Source of the DNA: an uncultured archaeon
GTDB lineage: Archaea > Asgardarchaeota > Lokiarchaeia > Sigyniarchaeales > SOKP01
Direction of reading: 5' to 3'
DNA length: 35,712 nt
Assembly (NCBI GenBank): GCA_964583985.1
Contig: CAZOYD010000036.1
Location: forward strand, 1 to 35,712
Below, piece by piece: positions 4,059 to 34,037 of the stretch. The notes beneath the pieces are model-generated. The model ran no database searches. It saw only the letters and a list, made by a program, of their open reading frames with translations, and was not told where the DNA came from. Both the position numbers and the translations under genes were made by a program. Each line of letters opens with the position of its first letter. Positions within the stretch are counted from its first letter, which is position 1.

Positions 4059-5621
4059 TTGAATATGATGGCAAGAGAATTAGAAGATGTACCGGGAATA
4101 GGAAAGGCAACTGCAGATAGATTAAGAGCTGCTGGAATCGAAACAGTCGAAAAGTTGGCTACTATTGAAGTGAAAGATTTAATCGAACTGAGAATTAAAG
4201 GGATTGGGGATTCCGCAGCATTAAAATATATTAATAGCGCTAAAGGTATATTTAATGAGAACAAATCTGATAACTCAAGTAAACCAAAACAATCGGAATC
4301 AGTATCTAAAAAAGAAAAGCCAAAAATAAAACAAGATGCATTGGCGATTTCTGAACTAAAGAATCTAATAAAAAAGCAAGCAGAGTGTAATATTGGATTG
4401 GTAGGTCACGTAGATCATGGAAAAACAACCTTGGTAAAAGCACTTACGGGTGATTGGACTGATAGACATTCAGAAGAACAAGAAAGGGGTATCTCAATAA
4501 AGTTAGGATATTCAAATGCCACAATTCTTTATTGTCCAACTTGTGATCAATATCTCACTACTTATATGGCTGAATTGGCAAGAGAAAAGGGAAAACCAAA
4601 ATATACTTGCGCAAAATGTGGAGGTCCTTTAGAATTTAAAAGAAATATCTCTTTCGTAGATGCTCCTGGGCATGAAATATTAATGGCAACAATGTTGAGT
4701 GGTGCGTCATTAATGAATGGCGCTTGTCTTTTAATCGCTGCTGATGAAAAATGTCCCCAGCCTCAAACTCGCGAACATTTAGCCGCTTTAAATATAGCTG
4801 GTATAACAAAGATAATAATCATTCAAAATAAGATCGATGCAGTATCCAAAGAGCAAACGCTTGAAAATTATCAAGAAATCAAAGAATTTATTAAAGGTAC
4901 TGTAGCTGAAAATGCTCCAATAATCCCAATTTCGGCTGTTTTTGGAGCAAATATTGATTTAGTAGTCAGAGCATTTCAAGAAATTATACCATCTCCAATA
5001 ATGAATGAAAATGACAAATTTCAATTCCTCATTGCACGTTCCTTCGATATTAATCGTCCTGGAACTTCAATTGAAAAACTAAATGGGGGCGTTATAGGGG
5101 GTTCTGTTTTGAAAGGAAGAATTGAAGTTGGCTCGAAAATAGAAATTCGTCCAGGGTTACATATAGAAAATAATTATGCTCCCATTATCTCCACTGTTGT
5201 TAGTATAAGTCAAGGGGATAATAGGTTAGATGCAGCAAGACCTGGTGGTTTAATAGGCCTAGGTACTAAATTAGATCCATCAATAACGAAAGGTGATTCC
5301 TTAATTGGACAATTAGTTGGAGAATTGGACTCTTTACCCGAAGTAATTTCTGAAGTCGAATTAGAAGTTAATTTATTGGAACGAGTAATAGGTACAGAAG
5401 ATCAAATTAAAGTACATGATCTTAGACATAATGAGAAATTACTATTGGTTGTAGGAACTGAAAAAACTGCAGGAACGGTTGTGAAAATATTGAAGAACTC
5501 TTATGTCCTAACTCTTAATCCTCCAATTTGCATACCCGAAAATTTTATTTTTGCTGTTTCAAGAATAATAAATAGGCGATATCGACTTATAGGTTATGGT
5601 AAATCTATTAATCATAATTAA
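4059..5621 (+). CDS. eif2g: Translation initiation factor 2 gamma subunit (aIF2-gamma) with an extra N-terminal helix-hairpin-helix domain
   Basis: GHVDHGKTT, TDRHSEEQERGISIKLGY, CxxC...CxxC zinc site, DAPGHE, PQPQTREHL, NKID, ARSFDINRPG, RLIGYG. The N-terminus LEDVPGIGKATADRLRAAGIETVEKLA is HhH-type. The true start is probably the ATG at 4065 or 4068. Confidence 0.95.
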   Translation: MNMMARELEDVPGIGKATADRLRAAGIETVEKLATIEVKDLIELRIKGIGDSAALKYINSAKGIFNENKSDNSSKPKQSESVSKKEKPKIKQDALAISELKNLIKKQAECNIGLVGHVDHGKTTLVKALTGDWTDRHSEEQERGISIKLGYSNATILYCPTCDQYLTTYMAELAREKGKPKYTCAKCGGPLEFKRNISFVDAPGHEILMATMLSGASLMNGACLLIAADEKCPQPQTREHLAALNIAGITKIIIIQNKIDAVSKEQTLENYQEIKEFIKGTVAENAPIIPISAVFGANIDLVVRAFQEIIPSPIMNENDKFQFLIARSFDINRPGTSIEKLNGGVIGGSVLKGRIEVGSKIEIRPGLHIENNYAPIISTVVSISQGDNRLDAARPGGLIGLGTKLDPSITKGDSLIGQLVGELDSLPEVISEVELEVNLLERVIGTEDQIKVHDLRHNEKLLLVVGTEKTAGTVVKILKNSYVLTLNPPICIPENFIFAVSRIINRRYRLIGYGKSINHN

Positions 5622-11531: not shown

Positions 11532-12818
11532 TTGAATAGTATGGTTGATTATATTAATTTACATTACGAACCAAATGAAAAGGACCTTGTGGTAATGTAT
11601 TACGTTGAAAAATCTGATGAGTGCAAAAGTTTAGAAAGCGCATCAGAAGAAATTGCAAAAGAAAGTTCCATTGGAACGTGGACTGAAATAGCTGCTTTAT
11701 CATCTGACATAGCTAATCGCTTGAAACCTTCAGTCTTTTATATAAATGAGGATAACGGAATAATCAAAATAGCATATCCAGAAGAATTATTTGAATTGAA
11801 TAATATTCCTCAAATTATGAGCGCTATTGCAGGTAATATTTTCGGAATGAAAGTAATAGAAAATTTAAGGTTAATTGATGTAATATTTCCAAAAAGCATT
11901 TTGGATGTTCATTATGGTCCTAAATATGGTATTAAGGGAATAAGAAAAATCCTTGGTATAGAAAATCGCCCTTTATTAGGAACCATTGTAAAACCAAAAG
12001 TCGGTTTAAATGAGATCGAACACGCCAGAGTTTGTAGGGATGCGTGGATGGGGGGTTTAGACCTGGTAAAAGATGATGAAAATTTGACCAACATGAAATT
12101 TAACACATTTCAAAAAAGAATTGTTGAAACTTTAAAAGTCCGGGATAAAATTGAGAATGAGACTAACGAAAAGAAGATTTACATGCCAAATATCACAGCT
12201 AAGATGGACATTATGAAGCAACGTGCCGATCATGTTATAGAAAATGGGGGAGAATACATTATGCTAGATATATTAACTGTAGGATTTTCAGCTCTACAAG
12301 AAATAAGAAGCTACCTTGATGATAAAAATGTAGTAATTCATGCTCATAGAGCAATGCACGCAGCACTTACCAGGAATAAAAAACACGGGATGACAATGCT
12401 CTTTTTAGCAAAAATTATGCGCTTAATCGGGATGGATCAACTTCATACCGGGACTATTGTAGGTAAAATGGAAGGTGGTAAACGTGAAGTCCAAGAGATT
12501 AATGAGGCAATCACCAAAAAAGAGGTTAAAGGGAATGATATTACGTTGTTAACTCAAAATTGGGGATCAATTAAACCTGTACTACCCGTAGCGTCTGGAG
12601 GATTAAGTCCTTTAAACATTCCAGATCTAATTGAGTTTCTAGGGAAAGATATGGTATTTCAATTTGGTGGCGGTTGTCACGGTCACCCCGATGGAACATT
12701 ATCTGGAGCGAAAGCCATAAGACAAGCTGTTGAAGCAACACTCGAAGGGATTAGTCTAATTGAGTATGCAAAAACACACAATGAGATAAAAAGAGCATTA
12801 AATAAATGGAAAATATGA
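11532..12818 (+). CDS. rbcL: Form III ribulose-1,5-bisphosphate carboxylase large subunit
   Basis: ESSIGTW, GTIVKPKVGL, GGLDLVKDDE, HAHRAMH, GKMEG, VASGGL, QFGGG. The catalytic residues are intact. Confidence 0.95.
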   Translation: MNSMVDYINLHYEPNEKDLVVMYYVEKSDECKSLESASEEIAKESSIGTWTEIAALSSDIANRLKPSVFYINEDNGIIKIAYPEELFELNNIPQIMSAIAGNIFGMKVIENLRLIDVIFPKSILDVHYGPKYGIKGIRKILGIENRPLLGTIVKPKVGLNEIEHARVCRDAWMGGLDLVKDDENLTNMKFNTFQKRIVETLKVRDKIENETNEKKIYMPNITAKMDIMKQRADHVIENGGEYIMLDILTVGFSALQEIRSYLDDKNVVIHAHRAMHAALTRNKKHGMTMLFLAKIMRLIGMDQLHTGTIVGKMEGGKREVQEINEAITKKEVKGNDITLLTQNWGSIKPVLPVASGGLSPLNIPDLIEFLGKDMVFQFGGGCHGHPDGTLSGAKAIRQAVEATLEGISLIEYAKTHNEIKRALNKWKI

Positions 12819-20227: not shown

Positions 20228-22990
20228 CTATAAGGATTCAATGTTCTCAACTGAAACATCCTTATATTGCATTTCGAGAAGATGTTTATAAACGCTATTT
20301 TCTCTAACTATTAGTTGCTCATGAGTACCTTGCTCCACGATACCTTTTTGATCTTGATCAAGCACCACAATCCAATCTGCATTTTTAATTGTAGATAAAC
20401 GATGAGCGATTATGAGTGTTGTTCGTCCTTCTCTTGCTCGATCAAGAGCATCTTGGATCAATGACTCTGTATAGGGATCCACAGATGAGGTTGCCTCATC
20501 AAGAATTAATATCTTTGGATTTTGGATCAGAGCTCGGGCAAATGCAATGAGTTGACGTTGTCCTATAGAAATATTCGATGCATTTTCCTTTAGTATAGTA
20601 TCATATTTTTTAGGAAGTGTTTCAATAAAATTATGGAGACCCAAAAATTTCGATACACCAATCATCTTCTCTTCTATTTTTTCTTTCATCTTGGGGTTTG
20701 ATACTTCTTCCTCATATCCATAGAGAAGGTTATCTCGGATGGTACCTGAGAATAGGAATGAGTCTTGAGGTACAAGACCGATCAAATTTCGAAGATTTTT
20801 TTTATCTAAAGTTTTTACATCTATACCGTCAATCAAAATCTTTCCATCAATTACATCATAAAATCGACAAATTAACTTGATGAAGGTAGTTTTTCCAGCA
20901 CCAGTCCTCCCAACAATAGCAATAGTTTTACCCTCATCGATTTTTAAGTCTAATTGTTTTAGGACATACCCAGTTGACATTTCATGTTCCATAAGAATTC
21001 GTTGCTCTTCAATAGCTTTCTTCACAATCTCTGGAAAATCTTTAGTAATTTCTTCAGGTAAAGAAATTACAGTTAGCATCCGAAGAAGCTGCGTACTGTT
21101 CATCCTCCCACCCGTTCCACCACCTATCATTTCTCCAGATTCACCACCCATTCCCCCTCCGCTTCCACTGCCCCTTGCCATAGTTGATTGACCTTTGAGA
21201 GTCATTTCTAACCCTCGAACTATTCGATTAATTTTTTCGGGATTATTTAAAAAATCTTTAAAGAATGGAGGTATATCTTGTACTATTGATTCTTTCCTTA
21301 TATCCGATATCTTTGCTAAATCTTCAAAATATTTTTTATTTTTAACGACTGGTCTCTCTTCTGTCATCGTTGATTTCTTAAAAGTTTGGGGGAAATTTGT
21401 ATTTAATTCTGGATGATCTTTCGCCTGTTGAGTTTCTGGAATTGCAAATCCAAATTTTGACAAGATCTCATCAATCTTAGTAGGAAAATCCTCAGGAGAT
21501 TTTCCCATTATATTTGTTATTATTTTTCGTCTAATTTCTTGAGGGATCTGAATAAAATTCTTTTGAATGAATAATTTATACGGTTCTGGAAGATTTGATA
21601 AAAAATGTTGAGCTTGTTGCATCATCTTCATAGGATTATGATCTTGAACTCTTTTTTGCATTTCTTGCGTCTTAATTTTATCAGATTTATTCGAAGTTAT
21701 AGGAACTTTTAGAGATCCCTTAGAAAATGAATTGAATTCTTCGATTCCATTGAACTTATAGCCGAAGCTGACATCCTCAAATTCAATGAGCCCTTTAGGA
21801 TTCTGAATGTATACAGGTTGTTCTGGATTGGGAAGATCAACCTCCTCATCTAAAACCGCATATATTCGATCAGCGGCAGCCATTGCACTTTCAATAACTT
21901 GCTGGATTTGAGTAAGATTCATAAAAGGCTGGAAAAAGTTTGACATATATTGAATGAATGCGGTAAGTATTCCTGCAGTAATCGCGATACCAAAAGGAGT
22001 AAAATTAATTAGAGTCACATACCCTCCAATCACAAGAACTGTTGCGGTTAAGACGGATGATAAGAATCTAATAAGTGGAAAGAAAGTAGCAAAAATTCTC
22101 CGTGCTCTAAATGAAGCTTCAGCATTCTCCAGATTTGCTCGATCAAATTCATCCCTAGCTTTTTCTTCTTGGCCAAATGCTTTAACGGTCTTTGCTCCTG
22201 TAATATTCTCTTGAATTGAAGAAGTAACTTTGCTAATCTTCTTCCGAGTTTCTTTAAAAGCACCTATCACTCGATTTCTAAACCATCTAGACATGAAATA
22301 GAAGACAGGAAAAACAATTAACCCGAATAATGCAAGGAAAGGACTCAATATAAACATAAATGTAATACTTAATCCGAGACTTATAATACTCGTAATAATC
22401 TGGACGAGTTGTCCACCCACTAATAAATTCATTTGATCAATATCATTCGTTGCTCTAGAGATTACATCACCCGAAGGATGTTTATCAAAATAAGCCATCG
22501 ACATGTTCTGAAGTTGTTCGAAAATATCATTTCGCATTGAAAAAACAACATTTTGTCCAATTTTCCCCAAGCCATAAGATCCAATATAATTTCCTATTGC
22601 CATAATTACCAAAAGCGTCATATAAAGGATGGAGATACTAAAAATTACTTGAGAATTTCTTTGAATAATTCCAAGATCTATCAAATTTCTAGTTAATAAT
22701 GGTGTAATAGAACTAATTACTGAACCTAATACAATAAGTATGGTATAAAAAATGAACAGTATCTTATGTTTAAAAAGATATGCATAAATCCAACGCCACA
22801 AAATACGTCGTGGATTTTCAAGTTTAACCTTTTCTCCAGTAAACGCCATCGGACCACGGCGATTGGTTACTTGGGGGCCAACGGGCCTTAATTCTCTTTC
22901 TTTCTCTATTTTTTCGAGTCGTTTCTTCTCTTCCAGATTTATTTTTTCTTCGGATAAATTTGAATTTTCTTGAATTTTTCTTTTCTTCAT
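20228..22990 (-). CDS. Heterodimeric ABC exporter subunit (TM288/LmrD-like) with a large insertion in the NBD
   Basis: TMD plus NBD: GRTGAGKT, degenerate signature ISIGQ, canonical LDEATS and IAHRL. About 260 extra aa lie between SFGY and VLKQLD. Confidence 0.92.
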   Translation of the reverse strand: MKKRKIQENSNLSEEKINLEEKKRLEKIEKERELRPVGPQVTNRRGPMAFTGEKVKLENPRRILWRWIYAYLFKHKILFIFYTILIVLGSVISSITPLLTRNLIDLGIIQRNSQVIFSISILYMTLLVIMAIGNYIGSYGLGKIGQNVVFSMRNDIFEQLQNMSMAYFDKHPSGDVISRATNDIDQMNLLVGGQLVQIITSIISLGLSITFMFILSPFLALFGLIVFPVFYFMSRWFRNRVIGAFKETRKKISKVTSSIQENITGAKTVKAFGQEEKARDEFDRANLENAEASFRARRIFATFFPLIRFLSSVLTATVLVIGGYVTLINFTPFGIAITAGILTAFIQYMSNFFQPFMNLTQIQQVIESAMAAADRIYAVLDEEVDLPNPEQPVYIQNPKGLIEFEDVSFGYKFNGIEEFNSFSKGSLKVPITSNKSDKIKTQEMQKRVQDHNPMKMMQQAQHFLSNLPEPYKLFIQKNFIQIPQEIRRKIITNIMGKSPEDFPTKIDEILSKFGFAIPETQQAKDHPELNTNFPQTFKKSTMTEERPVVKNKKYFEDLAKISDIRKESIVQDIPPFFKDFLNNPEKINRIVRGLEMTLKGQSTMARGSGSGGGMGGESGEMIGGGTGGRMNSTQLLRMLTVISLPEEITKDFPEIVKKAIEEQRILMEHEMSTGYVLKQLDLKIDEGKTIAIVGRTGAGKTTFIKLICRFYDVIDGKILIDGIDVKTLDKKNLRNLIGLVPQDSFLFSGTIRDNLLYGYEEEVSNPKMKEKIEEKMIGVSKFLGLHNFIETLPKKYDTILKENASNISIGQRQLIAFARALIQNPKILILDEATSSVDPYTESLIQDALDRAREGRTTLIIAHRLSTIKNADWIVVLDQDQKGIVEQGTHEQLIVRENSVYKHLLEMQYKDVSVENIESL

Positions 22991-25634: not shown

Positions 25635-26912
25635 ATGTTTTCTTATTTAGAAGAGAGTGAAATTCCCATCATCAAAAGTTCAAAAGAGGTCTATATTAAA
25701 GTAAATGGTATAGATTTTAAAAAACATTGCTATACATCTCCAGAAGTATTGGAAGCTGTAATTAATTACCTAAAAAATAAAGGCGCAAAAGTTAATGTTA
25801 TGGAAAACTCTACTCAAGGTAATATGACAAGAATAGTCTTTTCTATAAATGGGTATAAACAGGTTTGCGAAAGAACAGGAGCAAATATAATATATTTAGA
25901 TGAGGAAGATTTTCAAGAATTTGAATTTAAAGGAAAACGATCAATCGATGAAGATCCTAAAGGATATAACCTAAAAATTTTCAGATTACCTTCCACCATC
26001 GTCAAAATTATCGAAGAAAGGGAAACCATTACTTATATTAATTTGCCTAAATTAAAAACTCATTCTATGGCCCGAGTAACACTTGGAATCAAAAATCAAT
26101 GGGGTTTTCCTCAACATGCCGACAGAGGTAAAGATCATAACTATAATTTACATTCGAAATTGGTAGATGTATATGGAATTATTAGACCCGACATTACAAT
26201 TATTGATGGTTCAGGAGGAGGAACAATTCATGGGCACTATCCTCCTACAGCTTGGGAGGATGAATTAGTAATTCCATTTAACATATTAATTGGGGGTCAA
26301 GATACCTTGGCTGTTGATGTTGTTGGTGCACGGATCTTTGGTCTGACAATAGATGAAGTTCCTCACCTAAAAATAGCATATGAACGCGGATTAGGAGAAG
26401 GTGATATTGAAAAGATAAAGGTTATTGGTAAAGATTTAAGCGAGTACAAAGAGAAATATGAATGGAATTTAGTGCAAAAATTTCCGGATGATGTGAAAAT
26501 AGTTAAAGGAAAAGAAATGGTATGTATTGAAGGTTGTTTAAACAATCCTTTAGCAACCGTACAAGGTTTTGCATATGATTATCCTGATAAATTTAAAGGA
26601 AACTGGTTTTTAGTAATAGGAAAAGGTCATGATGAAAATTTAGTAGAAATGTTAAAAGAAGAAGGCTACACAAAAGGACTTGTTGCTGGGTTTTGCGCTA
26701 TTGACGAAGTTGGCGATAAGCTTGTTAAGGAATTTGGAAAAAGGAAGGTATTTTTCTCAGGAGATTGCAATAATTTAGCTGAAACTGTCAAAGCTGTTTT
26801 AAAATTAGCAAAAATGACCGTGTTAGATCTAGTTCCAATTTCTAATGATGAATTAATGGCACTTATCAACGAAGCTCAACAACATGGCAGTACTGCATTA
26901 ACACCCCTCTAA
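25635..26912 (+). CDS. DUF362 domain (Fe-S-associated) protein
   Basis: YIKVN..., TSPEVLEAV, INLPKLKTH, VTLGIKN, DTLAVDVVGARIFG, and later Cys residues (CIEGC, GFC, GDC). The frame extends upstream to ATT at 25578. Confidence 0.85.
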   Translation: MFSYLEESEIPIIKSSKEVYIKVNGIDFKKHCYTSPEVLEAVINYLKNKGAKVNVMENSTQGNMTRIVFSINGYKQVCERTGANIIYLDEEDFQEFEFKGKRSIDEDPKGYNLKIFRLPSTIVKIIEERETITYINLPKLKTHSMARVTLGIKNQWGFPQHADRGKDHNYNLHSKLVDVYGIIRPDITIIDGSGGGTIHGHYPPTAWEDELVIPFNILIGGQDTLAVDVVGARIFGLTIDEVPHLKIAYERGLGEGDIEKIKVIGKDLSEYKEKYEWNLVQKFPDDVKIVKGKEMVCIEGCLNNPLATVQGFAYDYPDKFKGNWFLVIGKGHDENLVEMLKEEGYTKGLVAGFCAIDEVGDKLVKEFGKRKVFFSGDCNNLAETVKAVLKLAKMTVLDLVPISNDELMALINEAQQHGSTALTPL

Positions 26913-27099
26913 TATCGTCAGAAATGAAATCAAAAAATCAAATTCCTTTCAAAATTCGCTATTAATTCAAATTAAACAACAATAATATTCTTTTATTTCA
27001 AAATTAAACTGAAATTCTTAAAGATATATTGATTATGTAAATAATTAAATAGAAAATTTGACACTAATAATTTAAAAAAATCAAAATATAAATCTGCAA

Positions 27100-28581
27100 G
27101 TGAAACATATGGAAGAAAATGAAAATCAATCAACACCAGAGGAGATTGAGAAGCAAAAAAAGATTGTCGTTCAGTTATATAAGAAAGAAAAAGAAGAACG
27201 GGAAGAATACTTTAAAGAATTCGAAGTGGAACGCAAAAAGAATTTCGAAGAAAGTATGGAAATGATCTCTGGGCTTATTTCAGAGAAGGCTTTCCTCCGT
27301 GATAGACATCGACAAGAAGATATACAGAGAATGGGATTAAATCCGCAAATAGAAAGTAAAGGAGAAGCAATTGAAAAAGACATTGAACAGAAGGCATTCT
27401 TAAGAGAAAAACAAAGATGTGAAGACTTACAACGAATGGAACTTAAACCAGATATCAAGGGTGTTGGAGAAATTATCACTAAATCTATCGATGAAAAAGC
27501 ATTTTTAATTGAGAAAAAAAGGGAATCTGATATCCAACGAGCAAAATTAAAACCTGATTTGGAAAAATCTATGGAAGCGATAAGTAAATCAGTTGATGAA
27601 AAAGCATTTATGATACAGAGAAAAAAAGAGGATGATGAAACGAGATTACAAATTAAGCCTGACATGGAGTCGACTGCTCAAGCAATCAGTAAAACGATTA
27701 ATGAAAAAGCCTATATCAGAGATAAACAACGAGAAGAAGATTTAAAGAGAATGGAAATTCATCCTGACTTCAGAACAACTGGTGAGGCTATTAATAAAAC
27801 CATCGCAGAAAAAGCATTTAGAATAGATAAGCAGAGAGAAACTGATCAAAATCGATTAAAGATTAAACCAAATATCGAGGAAGCTACTGATGCAATCAAA
27901 CAAACCATTGATGGAAAAGCATTTCGTATTGAAAAGCAGAGAGAATTAGATCAAAAGAGATTGGGATTACATCCTGAATTTGAAAAATCTGCTGAAGCCA
28001 TCAACAAGACTATCGCAGAGAAAGCATTTCTTAGAGAAAAACAAAGAGAAGATGATTTCAAACGGATGGAAATCCATCCAGAATTTAGAAAAACGGGAGA
28101 AGCCATCGATAAAACTATCGCAGAAAAAGCATTTAGGATTGATAAACAAAGAGAGATTGATCAGAAGAGATTAGGTGTAAACCCAGATAAGGAAAAAATA
28201 GGTCATGCCATTGAAAAAGTCATCGAAGAGAAAGCATTTCTTAGAGAAAAACAAAGAGAAGAGGATAGTAAAAGAGTTGCTATTAAACCAGATTTAGAAT
28301 CTGCAAGCAAAGCCATAAAGTCATCCATTGATGAAAAAGCGTTTAGAATTGAAAAGAGAAGAGAAATTGATAGTAAAAAAATGGAATTACATCCCGATTT
28401 TGAGAAAACAAGTGAAACCATTGAAAAAGTATTTGAAGAAAAAGCTTTTTATCGGGAAAAGCAAAGAGAAGAGGATCGTAGACGATTTGAAATTAAACCC
28501 GATATCAAAGGACTTGGAGAAAAATTAGAGAATAAAATTGAAAAAATCGAAGAAAAAAAACGAGAAGAAAGTCTTGATTAA
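27100..28581 (+). CDS. Highly charged tandem-repeat protein, 12 x 35 aa
   Basis: Consensus xEKAF(LR/RI)(E/D)KQRExDxKRxx(I/L)xP(D/E)xExxxEAIxKxI recurs with an exact 35-residue period. Confidence 0.9.
   Translation: MKHMEENENQSTPEEIEKQKKIVVQLYKKEKEEREEYFKEFEVERKKNFEESMEMISGLISEKAFLRDRHRQEDIQRMGLNPQIESKGEAIEKDIEQKAFLREKQRCEDLQRMELKPDIKGVGEIITKSIDEKAFLIEKKRESDIQRAKLKPDLEKSMEAISKSVDEKAFMIQRKKEDDETRLQIKPDMESTAQAISKTINEKAYIRDKQREEDLKRMEIHPDFRTTGEAINKTIAEKAFRIDKQRETDQNRLKIKPNIEEATDAIKQTIDGKAFRIEKQRELDQKRLGLHPEFEKSAEAINKTIAEKAFLREKQREDDFKRMEIHPEFRKTGEAIDKTIAEKAFRIDKQREIDQKRLGVNPDKEKIGHAIEKVIEEKAFLREKQREEDSKRVAIKPDLESASKAIKSSIDEKAFRIEKRREIDSKKMELHPDFEKTSETIEKVFEEKAFYREKQREEDRRRFEIKPDIKGLGEKLENKIEKIEEKKREESLD
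27280..28540 (+). repeat. Coding tandem repeat, 105-bp unit, about 12 copies
   Basis: Recurring gaaaaagcattt...aaacaaagagaa elements at 105-nt spacing. Confidence 0.85.
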
Positions 28582-28591
28582 GCATTTTATT

Positions 28592-29083
28592 TTAAAATCC
28601 ATAATCGTGTCTAAAATTAGTACTAAAGTTTGTAATTTCCAATCTTTTTTTATATTTAAGAATTGAAGGCTCAATACGACCATCAAAATGATTAATACTT
28701 CCTTCAAACCGTGTATAAAAATCCTGAACAATCTGTTTTAGAATTGATCTTTCAATATTTAAGCTTGTTTTTCGAGTAATTGCGATTACCAATAATCTTC
28801 CATATCGTTCATATAAAATTCTTGTTTCATCGAAATTGATTTCTTGAATCTCTTCAGACTTATTGCCAGGTTTTACCTCTTTAATGAATAGATTTAACGC
28901 ATTTAAAAACCCCCCAATTAAATCCATATCAATCGAACTATCAGGATTTAATGAATACTCTTTACTTAATAATAATGAACCTGTTATTTTATCTAAGAAA
29001 TATATTGCTAGAAATCGATTAGAATCTGCATCTTGTTGACTATCAGTAAAACCAAATGATCTGATATCTGAATTTCGATACAT
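28592..29083 (-). CDS. Longin-like domain protein
   Basis: AIYFLDKITGSLLLSKEY...DLIGGFLNALNLFIKEV...IQEINF...LLVIAIT...LKQIVQDFYTRF fits the beta-beta-alpha-beta-beta-beta-alpha pattern of Asgard longin-like proteins. Confidence 0.7.
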   Translation of the reverse strand: MYRNSDIRSFGFTDSQQDADSNRFLAIYFLDKITGSLLLSKEYSLNPDSSIDMDLIGGFLNALNLFIKEVKPGNKSEEIQEINFDETRILYERYGRLLVIAITRKTSLNIERSILKQIVQDFYTRFEGSINHFDGRIEPSILKYKKRLEITNFSTNFRHDYGF

Positions 29084-30419: not shown

Positions 30420-30563
30420 GACTCCTGCCTCACCCTGGATTTTTGTCTTTTGGTAGCGCTTAATGCGCTCTTATTTCGCCCTCCAAGGTACGTGGCACAC
30501 GCGAACCTGGGGAATCCCCCTTTAATTTTTCTGACCTTATCATTAGGTCTCGGGGCAGGAGTC
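30420..30563 (-). ncRNA. Unclassified structured RNA (multibranch, about 145 nt); strand tentative
   Basis: GC-rich island closed by a terminal stem with 11 Watson-Crick pairs in 12 (30420-30431/30552-30563), enclosing several small helices. Minus-strand joiners are A-rich. Confidence 0.6.
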
Positions 30564-30855: not shown

Positions 30856-32556
30856 ATGACCGAAGAAATTATTAGACGTACGCGTAGCATTTGTCCAGAA
30901 TGCATGAAAACCATTGATGCAGAAATTTACGTTGATCCAAAGACAGATTTCGTCATGATGCGAAAAACATGCGAAGAACACGGAGAATTCAAAGATAAGC
31001 TCGCAAGAGAATCTGAAGAATACAAGTGGGGAGAAACTTTCACTGATGAGTTAGGATCTACTATTAGCAATTCAACAAAACCAGAATATATAAATTCTGG
31101 AATAAAGGACATCGTAAATGGATGCCCTAATGATTGTGGTTTGTGCGATCATCATCAATCCGCTCCAAATATCGCCCTAATTGATGTTACAAATCGATGT
31201 AATTTGACTTGTCCCATCTGCTTTGCAAATGCTAGTGCCAAGGGATATGTGGTCGAGCCTACATTCGATCAACTTGTACAAATAATGCAACATTTTAGGT
31301 CAATGAAACCCGTTCCTCCAGTTTTGTTACAATTATCCGGAGGAGAACCTACAGTGAGGGACGATCTTCCCGATATCATTCGAAAAGGTGTAGAATTGGG
31401 TTTTGTTGAAGTAATGGTCACTACTAATGGAGTAAGATTTGCTAAATCACCAGAATTTATGAAAAAATGTATGGATGCTGGCATGAAAGCCGTTTACTTG
31501 CAATTCGACGCAACTGATGATCCAGAAGTATGGAAAAAAATAAGAGGAGTCAATTTATGGCCTCTAAAGAAAAAAGTATTTGAAAACGCTCGAAAAATCG
31601 GATACTATGGAATTGTATTAGTACCTGTTATAGCTAAGGGAGTAAACGATCATCAAATAGGTCCGATAATGGAGTTTGCAAAACAAAATACTGATCTGGT
31701 TACAGGGATAGTATTCCAACCAGTTTCACTCTGTGGTCGTATAAGTTTCGAAGAATTAATGGATTTACGATATACTACTTCTGATTTGAAAGTAGCTATC
31801 AATGAAGCCACAAATAATGCAATTACGAGATTTTATCCCATAGCAACTACAGCTAAAATGACGAGATTACTAGCGTGGTTTGATGATGTGCCAGAATTTT
31901 CTATGACAAGCCATAAAGATTGTGGATTTGCCACCATTTGTATCGTCAATGACAAAGATGAATGGGAACCTCTTGATAAATATTTTGATGTGGAAGGATT
32001 AGTTAGATGGTCAAATAAGACCTATGATATGGTACAGAAACAAGAAATACCAAAACCAACTGGATTTTTAAAGAATATAAATCTTGAAGATTTAGGTGCC
32101 GTTCCTAATACTATCGGTAAATTTATTGATGATATGACAAATTTAGGATATCGTCAAATGATGAAAGCATATTATCTTGCCGGTTCAATGCGTTATGTCA
32201 AGAATCCAGCGAAAGTATTGACCAGTAAGACATTTCAAGGATTTGCTCGTTTGGTCATGGCCCCAAATCTATCCTCAGCAACCAACTTTTTACACACTCG
32301 AAATCTCTTAGTTAGTGCCATGCACTTTCAAGACGCATACAATTTTGATCTTGACAGGGTCTGTAAATGTTTAGTCCATTATGGTGTAATAGATCCAAAT
32401 GATCACACTAAAGTGTTAGAGATCCCCTTCTGTGCCATGAACACGATACACAGAGAGAGGATAGAGCTAGCTAACGCCATCCAAGGCGAAGAAGCCAAGA
32501 AAGCAGAAGTCATACAAGCTGAGATTGAAAACTTGATAAAAACCGTTGAAAAATAA
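30856..32556 (+). CDS. tes: Tetraether lipid synthase (Tes / GDGT-MAS; MJ0619-family radical SAM)
   Basis: N-terminal SICPEC...KTCEEHG, CPNDCGLC, DVTNRCNLTCPICFAN, C-terminal FQDAYNFDLDRVCKCLVHY...IPFCAMN. Confidence 0.88.
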   Translation: MTEEIIRRTRSICPECMKTIDAEIYVDPKTDFVMMRKTCEEHGEFKDKLARESEEYKWGETFTDELGSTISNSTKPEYINSGIKDIVNGCPNDCGLCDHHQSAPNIALIDVTNRCNLTCPICFANASAKGYVVEPTFDQLVQIMQHFRSMKPVPPVLLQLSGGEPTVRDDLPDIIRKGVELGFVEVMVTTNGVRFAKSPEFMKKCMDAGMKAVYLQFDATDDPEVWKKIRGVNLWPLKKKVFENARKIGYYGIVLVPVIAKGVNDHQIGPIMEFAKQNTDLVTGIVFQPVSLCGRISFEELMDLRYTTSDLKVAINEATNNAITRFYPIATTAKMTRLLAWFDDVPEFSMTSHKDCGFATICIVNDKDEWEPLDKYFDVEGLVRWSNKTYDMVQKQEIPKPTGFLKNINLEDLGAVPNTIGKFIDDMTNLGYRQMMKAYYLAGSMRYVKNPAKVLTSKTFQGFARLVMAPNLSSATNFLHTRNLLVSAMHFQDAYNFDLDRVCKCLVHYGVIDPNDHTKVLEIPFCAMNTIHRERIELANAIQGEEAKKAEVIQAEIENLIKTVEK

Positions 32557-33500: not shown

Positions 33501-34037
33501 ATGATGAATGAAGAACGTGAATATGTTTTTAAAATAACGCTTCTCGGCGATGCTGCAGTTGGCAAGACATCATTGATAAATCAGTTTGTCGAAAATACAT
33601 TTCAAGAAGATTATAAACCAACTCTGGGTGCAAATATCATCCGTAAAGATGTAATCTTAGAGGAATTTAATGCAAAATGTAGATTAATTGTGTGGGATTT
33701 GGCAGGACAAGAGAAATATAATGTTGTAAGAAGTTTATATTATCAAGGATGTGTTGGCGCTTTATTGGTTTATGATATTACTCGAGTTGTCACTTTTGAA
33801 AATATCGAGTCGAAATGGTTGAATGATTTTAAAAAATATGTGAAAAAAGAAGGCGTATATTTGTTAATCGGTAATAAAAGTGATTTAAATGAACAAAGGG
33901 TGATTCAAACCAGCGATGGAAATCAATTAGCCGAAAAAATTAAAGCCAGTAAATTCATTGAAACAAGCGCTAAATTTGGAGAAAATGTAAATAACGCTTT
34001 TAAAACACTTGTTTATCAAATTCTTGAAAACCAATAA
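33501..34037 (+). CDS. Rab-like small GTPase (Ras superfamily)
   Basis: GDAAVGKT, YKPTLG, WDLAGQEKY, YYQG, LLVYDIT, GNKSD, ETSAK. No C-terminal prenylation cysteines. Confidence 0.95.
   Translation: MMNEEREYVFKITLLGDAAVGKTSLINQFVENTFQEDYKPTLGANIIRKDVILEEFNAKCRLIVWDLAGQEKYNVVRSLYYQGCVGALLVYDITRVVTFENIESKWLNDFKKYVKKEGVYLLIGNKSDLNEQRVIQTSDGNQLAEKIKASKFIETSAKFGENVNNAFKTLVYQILENQ

What the first reader, a model, noticed from the sequence alone, without database searches (positions are those of the whole stretch)
27100..28581. Nebulin-like 35-residue repeat protein: candidate actin-filament ruler in an Asgard archaeon
Seen: twelve gap-free 35-aa repeats, very rich in E/K/R and with little hydrophobic core. 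Each has one conserved Pro 14 residues before an (S/D/N/A/E)-E-K-A-(F/Y) motif (e.g. ISEKAF, INEKAY). Known: nebulin/nebulette/LASP modules are about 35 aa, have a Pro roughly 13 residues before an SDxxY motif, are extended, and bind one actin subunit each; Asgard archaea have actin filaments and actin regulators. Inference: a side-binding filament stabiliser or ruler spanning about 12 subunits, homologous or convergent. PPR repeats are also 35 aa, but their hydrophobic helical-hairpin pattern is not evident here.
Basis: partly seen in the sequence, partly recalled or inferred. Interest (0 to 1): 0.78.

Follow-up and report, generated by a model that had tools for sequence, protein, structure and literature searches.

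The report
Lokiarchaeal 35-residue single-helix repeat protein
One family of Loki-type Asgard archaea has a real but unnamed gene for a string of 3-14 equal-length helices, grown by copying the tail of a 60-residue protein found in other Asgard groups; it resembles the muscle protein nebulin in layout only, and binding to actin is plausible but untested.

Summary
In detail: twelve gap-free 35-residue units (lag-35 identity 0.44, shuffles at most 0.15). The host is a Lokiarchaeia genome that encodes Lokiactin. The gene is single-copy in the host and found in 108 of 133 genomes of its family; 502 of 506 unit spacings are exactly 35, but copy number runs from 3 to 14. AlphaFold2 gives a string of ~30-residue helices broken at the proline, with no compact fold (pTM 0.20-0.22), which argues against a PPR/TPR solenoid. 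It is not detectably a nebulin: the Pfam nebulin model misses the orthologues, no SDxxY motif occurs in 512 units, and distant orthologues have 32- or 37-residue periods, one without the proline. The N-terminal 60 residues match a stand-alone microprotein of Freyarchaeia, Jordarchaeales and probably Atabeyarchaeia, whose last motif was amplified in Lokiarchaeia. Best reading: an extended multivalent binder of a periodic protein partner. Lokiactin is the likeliest single candidate (about 0.3), as a convergent side-binder rather than a fixed ruler. No binding was shown. Earlier notes of this scan found the family in other genomes and suggested the microprotein origin, which I tested and confirmed.

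The parts
27100..27103 (+). GTGA ribosome-binding-site-like element (overlaps the listed GTG start)
   Evidence: Kept about 5 nt before ATG/TTG in nearly all of about 45 orthologues, out of frame in L027 and L147; role inferred
27109..28581 (+). Repeat-protein gene, probable true extent (490 aa)
   Evidence: differences to orthologues concentrate at third codon positions (52/35/152 against L002); single copy in the genome
27109..27297 (+). Head plus first core motif: homologous over its length to a stand-alone 59-68 aa Asgard microprotein
   Evidence: Profile built only from Lokiarchaeia repeat proteins hits 5/5 Jordarchaeales-family and 5/6 Freyarchaeia genomes; none of 500 shuffles per sequence reaches the real score
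27277..28536 (+). Twelve 35-residue (105-bp) units; each one ~30-residue helix plus a 4-5 residue linker around I/L-K/H-P-D
   Evidence: coordinates; AlphaFold2; conservation
28537..28581 (+). Degenerate terminal half unit, charged tail and stop
28592..29083 (-). Convergent 163-aa neighbour, longin-like by eye, no Pfam hit
   Evidence: Present in 41 of 41 family loci compared; Pfam blank; fold guess from my own knowledge; synteny may be inheritance only
25635..26912 (+). Upstream DUF362 gene; a 248-aa gene that usually lies between it and the repeat gene is missing here
30856..32556 (+). Tetraether-lipid-synthase-like radical SAM gene; a Tes gene also follows the microprotein in Freyarchaeia
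   Evidence: 440 bits against a cut-off of 450; orthology of the two Tes copies unresolved

Best explanation
An extended, multivalent side-binder of a protein polymer, most likely the Lokiactin filament, that arose independently of nebulin. Shown: the gene is a 60-residue ancestral microprotein whose last motif (hydrophobic-x3-hydrophobic-x-E-K) was extended and copied 3-14 times in 105-bp steps; each unit is predicted as one helix with a narrow Ile stripe in its first two thirds, a charged last third and a short proline linker; no contacts between units are predicted. Inferred: each unit folds onto one subunit of a periodic partner through the Ile stripe and the nearly invariant Lys and Phe, while the charged part and linker set a spacing of about 4.5-6 nm, which brackets the 5.5-nm step along an actin strand; 12 units would line 55-75 nm of filament and stabilise or tether it. 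The single head would be an anchor or a second binding site. Variable copy number would tune avidity, not measure a fixed length.
For: Architecture: AlphaFold2 pTM 0.20 (full length) and 0.22 (four units, 110-row alignment); covariation over 525 two-unit segments is almost all local (low depth). Length is constrained: 502 of 506 spacings are 35, although units within a gene are only about 50% identical. Conserved polar residues inside the hydrophobic stripe (Lys17 99%, Arg/Lys25, Arg31) and an aromatic on the opposite face (Phe19 96%, Tyr 4%) suit a ligand-facing helix better than a self-packing core. A small residue four before the aromatic matches the position of the nebulin kink at Ser18. 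The host family has a 96-99% conserved Lokiactin, Lokiactin forms F-actin-like filaments in cells (PMC12993045), and every lineage with the head belongs to an actin-bearing phylum. No tubulin-level partner: the genome's two tubulin-family hits are FtsZ-sized.
Against: Nothing names the partner. No cytoskeletal gene lies in the conserved neighbourhood. The family was not found in about 250 other actin-bearing Asgard genomes searched, including a single-contig 4.4-Mb Lokiarchaeia genome (G209), so actin filaments do not need it. Periods of 32 and 37 residues, and irregular units, occur in distant orthologues. No WH2-type or SDxxY motif in register. The actin residue that pairs with nebulin's tyrosine (Lys68) is Met in this Lokiactin and Val or Ile in most other Asgard actins (numbering from my knowledge of actin). 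A 35-residue, mostly helical unit spans 5-6 nm whatever it binds.
Confidence: 0.3

Rival explanations
1. Multivalent scaffold for a non-actin protein: each helix docks one copy of a globular or oligomeric partner (as Sfi1 does with centrin, IQ arrays with calmodulin, or EPYC1 and CsoS2 with Rubisco), or lines another polymer such as FtsZ or ESCRT-III.
For: Same architecture evidence as the best explanation. An aromatic opposite the Ile stripe suits a helix clamped from two sides. Free copy number and tolerance of 32-37-residue periods fit beads on a string. The stand-alone microprotein has one such site.
Against: No candidate partner is fixed in the neighbourhood: the co-oriented upstream gene is missing in this genome and several relatives, and neighbours differ between classes. 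Exact 35-residue spacing within the family is stricter than a flexible scaffold needs.
Confidence: 0.28
2. Self-assembling helical rod or fibre: units pair through the Ile stripe as short coiled-coil segments (35 residues are five heptads) to form a segmented dimer or bundle that acts as a spacer or structural fibre.
For: Hydrophobic positions 3, 7, 10, 14, 21 follow a 4-3 heptad pattern; the best PDB sequence match is a designed antiparallel coiled-coil bundle (E 1.3e-4).
Against: Heptad core positions 17, 24, 28 and 31 hold conserved Lys, Gln, Asp and Arg; Gly is common at 5, 7 and 15; the invariant Phe is off the stripe; periods of 32 and 37 break the five-heptad count.
Confidence: 0.18
3. 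Membrane- or nucleic-acid-binding amphipathic chain, like proline-punctuated apolipoproteins or gas-vesicle GvpC, possibly tied to lipid synthesis.
For: Weak sequence match to apolipoprotein A-IV (E 2.3e-4); many orthologues are basic; a Tes-like gene lies nearby in Lokiarchaeia, and the Freyarchaeia microprotein sits between inositol-phosphate synthase and Tes.
Against: The hydrophobic face is narrow and flanked by Glu; the Phe is on the polar face; near-invariance of single residues is not needed for lipid binding; pI ranges from 5.6 to 9.9; Jordarchaeales and f15 loci have no lipid genes nearby.
Confidence: 0.12
4. A true nebulin homologue or a fixed-length ruler.
For: 35-residue period, Pro at the helix start, and S/G-E-x-x-F against S-D-x-x-Y.
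Against: PF00880 gives no listed match on the gene in the host or in 134 family genomes; no SDxxY in 512 units; Pro to aromatic is 18, not 17; Glu lies where nebulin has Lys11; the unit derives from an Asgard microprotein; 3-14 units.
Confidence: 0.05
5. PPR- or TPR-like helical-hairpin solenoid.
For: 35-residue period; the weakest phmmer hits are TPR proteins sharing the short L-E-I-K-P-D loop.
Against: One long helix per unit and pTM 0.2; PF01535 does not hit the gene in five genomes; the second half of the unit has no hydrophobic packing residues.
Confidence: 0.03

Closest known systems
Nebulin simple repeat (Pfam PF00880; nebulin, nebulette, LASP; structure in bioRxiv 10.1101/2021.10.06.463400)
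   Same: About 35 residues per unit; one long predicted helix starting at a Pro; small residue, acidic residue, two residues, then a conserved aromatic; extended chain with no fold of its own; actin-bearing host.
   Different: No HMM match; no SDxxYK; conserved Ile stripe and invariant Lys that nebulin lacks; longer helix and shorter linker; no seven-unit super-repeat; 3-14 units; different ancestry (Asgard microprotein); binding untested.
Multi-repeat beta-thymosin/WH2 proteins (ciboulot, tetrathymosin, actobindin; PF01290, PF02205)
   Same: A small stand-alone charged helical peptide in some lineages and a tandemly repeated form in others; short look-alike words (K-P-D-M, P-S-x-E-x-I/V). Comparison from my own knowledge.
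   Different: No LKKT-type motif in register; PF01290 does not hit the gene or the microprotein.
Linear multivalent helical scaffolds (Sfi1-centrin, IQ arrays, GvpC, EPYC1/CsoS2); from my own knowledge
   Same: Regularly spaced helical binding motifs on an extended chain with variable copy number.
   Different: No sequence similarity in Pfam; partner unknown.
PPR (PF01535) and TPR repeats
   Same: 34-35-residue period; a Pro-containing loop word shared with TPR.
   Different: Single helix per unit, no hairpin, no solenoid.

Membership tests
Nebulin repeat (PF00880) | Unit of 31-38, mostly 35, residues | tested here: met
   502 of 506 spacings are 35; definition
Nebulin repeat (PF00880) | SDxxYK motif | tested here: not met
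   0 SDxxY in 512 units; a relaxed S-[DE]-x-x-[YF]-[KR] in 21; Tyr 4%, Lys after it 2%
Nebulin repeat (PF00880) | Match to the family HMM | tested here: not met
   No match on the gene at E up to 10 in the host; none of the 150 best places in 134 family genomes falls on a known orthologue position (69 weaker places not listed)
Nebulin repeat (PF00880) | Pro at position 5 and conserved Asp3, Lys11, Lys30 in register | tested here: not met
   With Phe set on Tyr22 the Pro falls at 4; positions 3, 11 and 30 hold Lys/His, Glu and a variable residue; one orthologue has no Pro
Nebulin repeat (PF00880) | Extended, mostly helical unit without tertiary fold | tested here: met
   (prediction only)
Nebulin repeat (PF00880) | One unit bound per actin subunit along the filament groove | not testable with these tools
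   Needs binding assays or a structure
Beta-thymosin/WH2 | Amphipathic helix followed by an LKKT-type motif; HMM match | tested here: not met
   Only scattered out-of-register occurrences in 58 proteins; PF01290 blank on the gene and the microprotein
PPR (PF01535) | Two-helix hairpin per 35 residues stacking into a solenoid; HMM match | tested here: not met
   One helix per unit, pTM 0.20-0.22; no PF01535 match on the gene
TPR | 34-residue hairpin with small and large hydrophobic positions in both helices | tested here: not met
   Only the loop word is shared; second half of the unit is charged

The most novel reading that the evidence does not exclude
The 60-residue microprotein is an unrecognised ancient Asgard actin-binding peptide, and Lokiarchaeia turned it into a nebulin-like filament side-binder by tandem amplification: the first prokaryotic filament-lining stabiliser of F-actin, convergent with nebulin and with all evolutionary steps (0, 2, 3 to 14 units) still visible.
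Probability: 0.22. Interest if true: 0.85.

Novelty: new variant of a known kind. Interest (0 to 1): 0.46.

Why it matters
The Asgard actin regulators described in the papers I read are profilins and gelsolins; I found no report of a filament-lining stabiliser. If this protein lines Lokiactin, it would show that such a regulator evolved in archaea on its own, in the widespread uncultured Lokiarchaeia family. Even if the partner is something else, this is an undescribed family with an unusually complete record of how a microprotein becomes a repeat protein, and the 60-residue form, which is easy to synthesise, makes the partner directly testable.

Tried and rejected
No RNA holder was listed for the locus. 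Pfam and NCBIfam name no family; the scattered Pfam matches of single members differ from member to member and look like repeat and composition noise. The word-index protein search with the full protein found nothing. ESM Atlas feature searches and shape search were blank, Foldseek found no PDB match, and VIA-align gave only generic long helices at Z 6.3 or less; none of these blanks shows novelty. TPR proteins among the weak phmmer hits were rejected as loop-word matches. Weak head-profile hits at E above 2e-4 were set aside as chance where inspected, except G293, which is a real 59-aa ORF. Non-local covariation pairs involve near-invariant columns and were not trusted. The tree of head sequences is too short to root or order events; the direction of change rests on parsimony. 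Resemblances recalled to stathmin, IF1, ESCRT MIM1 and IQ motifs fail on spacing. Literature searches found no description of the family, and the Freyarchaeum locus tag is not in that paper's supplements.

Full report
Observation. The window encodes an open frame at 27100-28581 on the + strand. Twelve K-A-F/Y cores lie exactly 35 residues apart, and self-identity peaks only at multiples of 35. Lag-35 identity is 0.44, against at most 0.15 at any lag in 300 shuffles. The repeat is real. Eleven cores, not twelve, follow a Pro; the unit has a conserved Ile stripe; and the start is probably ATG 27109, because the GTGA just before it is kept as a ribosome-binding-like element across orthologues. 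Differences from orthologues concentrate at third codon positions, as expected of a coding gene under selection.

Host and distribution. The closest loci are labelled Promethearchaeota. The genome has a Lokiactin that is 96-99% identical across the family, a second close actin and several actin-related genes. A four-unit profile finds the gene in 108 of 133 genomes of the host family, 1 of 14 and 2 of 4 in two sister families, and none of the other roughly 250 Asgard genomes searched. Many of those are incomplete, so this means 'not found', not 'absent'. It is single-copy in the host. Complete orthologues have 3 to 14 units. Within the family 502 of 506 spacings are 35, and some genes hold identical units, which shows recent duplication or homogenisation. 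Outside the family the period is 37 without any Pro (G164), 32 with two units (P0044), or irregular (G386, G387).

Anatomy. AlphaFold2 predicts a 68-residue first helix, then helices of about 30 residues broken at the Pro linker, with pTM 0.20. A four-unit piece with a 110-row alignment gives the same picture at pTM 0.22. Counting from the Pro, positions 3, 10, 14 and 21 are Ile or similar and lie on one face with small residues at 7 and 18. Lys17 (99%) sits inside that stripe, Phe19 (96%) lies about 160 degrees away, and the last third of the helix is charged, with conserved Arg/Lys25, Glu26 and Arg31. Covariation is almost all between helix neighbours, at low depth. This pattern suits a helix that lies on or in a partner. 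That step is inference.

Origin. Earlier notes of this scan suggested descent from a small protein, and I tested it. A profile of the first 74 residues, built only from Lokiarchaeia repeat proteins, hits one short ORF in 5 of 5 genomes of one family and 5 of 6 of another at E 1e-8 to 1e-11. These are 65-68-residue genes of Freyarchaeum and Jordarchaeales. Iteration adds two complete genomes of about 2.8 Mb, by size probably Atabeyarchaeia, and a 59-residue gene in another order of the host's class. Real sequences score 18-47 bits; none of 500 shuffles each reaches that, and reversed sequences score about 0; the two 18-bit cases have the thinnest margin. The microprotein has a conserved N-terminal P-P-S/T-x-E-Q/E motif and ends in the hydrophobic-x3-hydrophobic-x-E-K motif that forms the core of every repeat. 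By parsimony the stand-alone form is older and the array is a Lokiarchaeia expansion; the short tree cannot prove the order.

Neighbourhood. In the family the order DUF362 gene, 248-aa gene, repeat gene, convergent longin-like gene, two small genes and a Tes-like radical SAM gene is nearly fixed, but the 248-aa gene is missing from this assembly. In Freyarchaeia the microprotein lies between inositol-phosphate synthase and Tes. Jordarchaeales and the f15 genomes have other neighbours. The host has two Tes-like genes, equally similar to the Freyarchaeia one, so this link is weak. No cytoskeletal gene is adjacent.

Comparison with nebulin. The published register has Pro5, Ser18, Asp19, Tyr22 and Lys23, a kink at Ser18, and conserved Asp3, Lys11 and Lys30. 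Setting Phe on Tyr22 gives a small residue at 18 and Glu at 19, which is a fair echo. But the Pro falls at 4, the other charged positions disagree, and no unit of 512 has SDxxY. The Pfam model misses the gene in the host and lists no orthologue among its best places in 134 genomes. The actin residue that contacts nebulin's Tyr is Met in this Lokiactin, while the acidic residue at 276 is kept. With the microprotein origin, homology is very unlikely. PPR, TPR and thymosin also fail their tests.

Mechanism. Thirty helical residues at 0.15 nm plus a short linker give 4.5-6 nm per unit, bracketing the 5.5-nm step along an actin strand (established values). Strict unit length with free copy number fits binding to a periodic surface, where more units add avidity. 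I therefore favour an extended multivalent binder (about 0.6 in total) and, within that, Lokiactin as the likeliest single partner (0.3), nearly level with an unknown non-actin partner (0.28). Self-assembly (0.18) and membrane or nucleic-acid binding (0.12) remain open. A fixed ruler is not supported, since closely related species differ from 9 to 12 units and the family spans 3 to 14.

Verdict. A real, conserved, undescribed family with a traceable origin; a new variant of extended helical repeat binders; not a nebulin; partner untested. The scan has met this family before in other genomes. Interest 0.46; 0.85 if actin binding is shown.

Noticed in passing
L037:683-1825 (G000:C116) and G057:C58: A second close actin, 83% identical to the main Lokiactin, in this genome and one same-genus genome; it has Arg where the main copy has Met at the position of actin Lys68.
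   Followed up: partly
L032:1418-2161 and orthologues; gap at window 26913-27099: An unnamed 248-aa gene lies just upstream of the repeat gene in 39 of 41 loci but is not found anywhere in this assembly.
   Followed up: partly
L045, L046, L053, L084 C-termini: Some orthologues end in an extra short motif, E-K-W-L-D/E-Q, absent from the window's protein.
   Followed up: no
L157:6942-7118: This microprotein is labelled Deferrimicrobium, a bacterial genus, by NCBI, while its genome is placed in the host's archaeal class; probably a mislabelled bin.
   Followed up: partly
L160:5001-6453: An orthologue split by a frameshift just after the head; mutation or assembly error not resolved.
   Followed up: no
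window 4059-5621: Translation factor aIF2-gamma with an N-terminal helix-hairpin-helix domain in the same frame.
   Followed up: no
window 20228-22990: ABC exporter subunit of 920 aa with about 320 residues between membrane domain and ATPase core, much longer than in its 594-aa partner.
   Followed up: no
window 11532-12818: A Rubisco large-subunit gene.
   Followed up: no
window 30420-30563 and 1116-1236: Earlier notes propose a structured RNA and a permuted 5S rRNA here; Rfam lists nothing at gathering score in the whole window.
   Followed up: partly
window 33501-34037: A Ras-family small GTPase gene 5 kb downstream.
   Followed up: no
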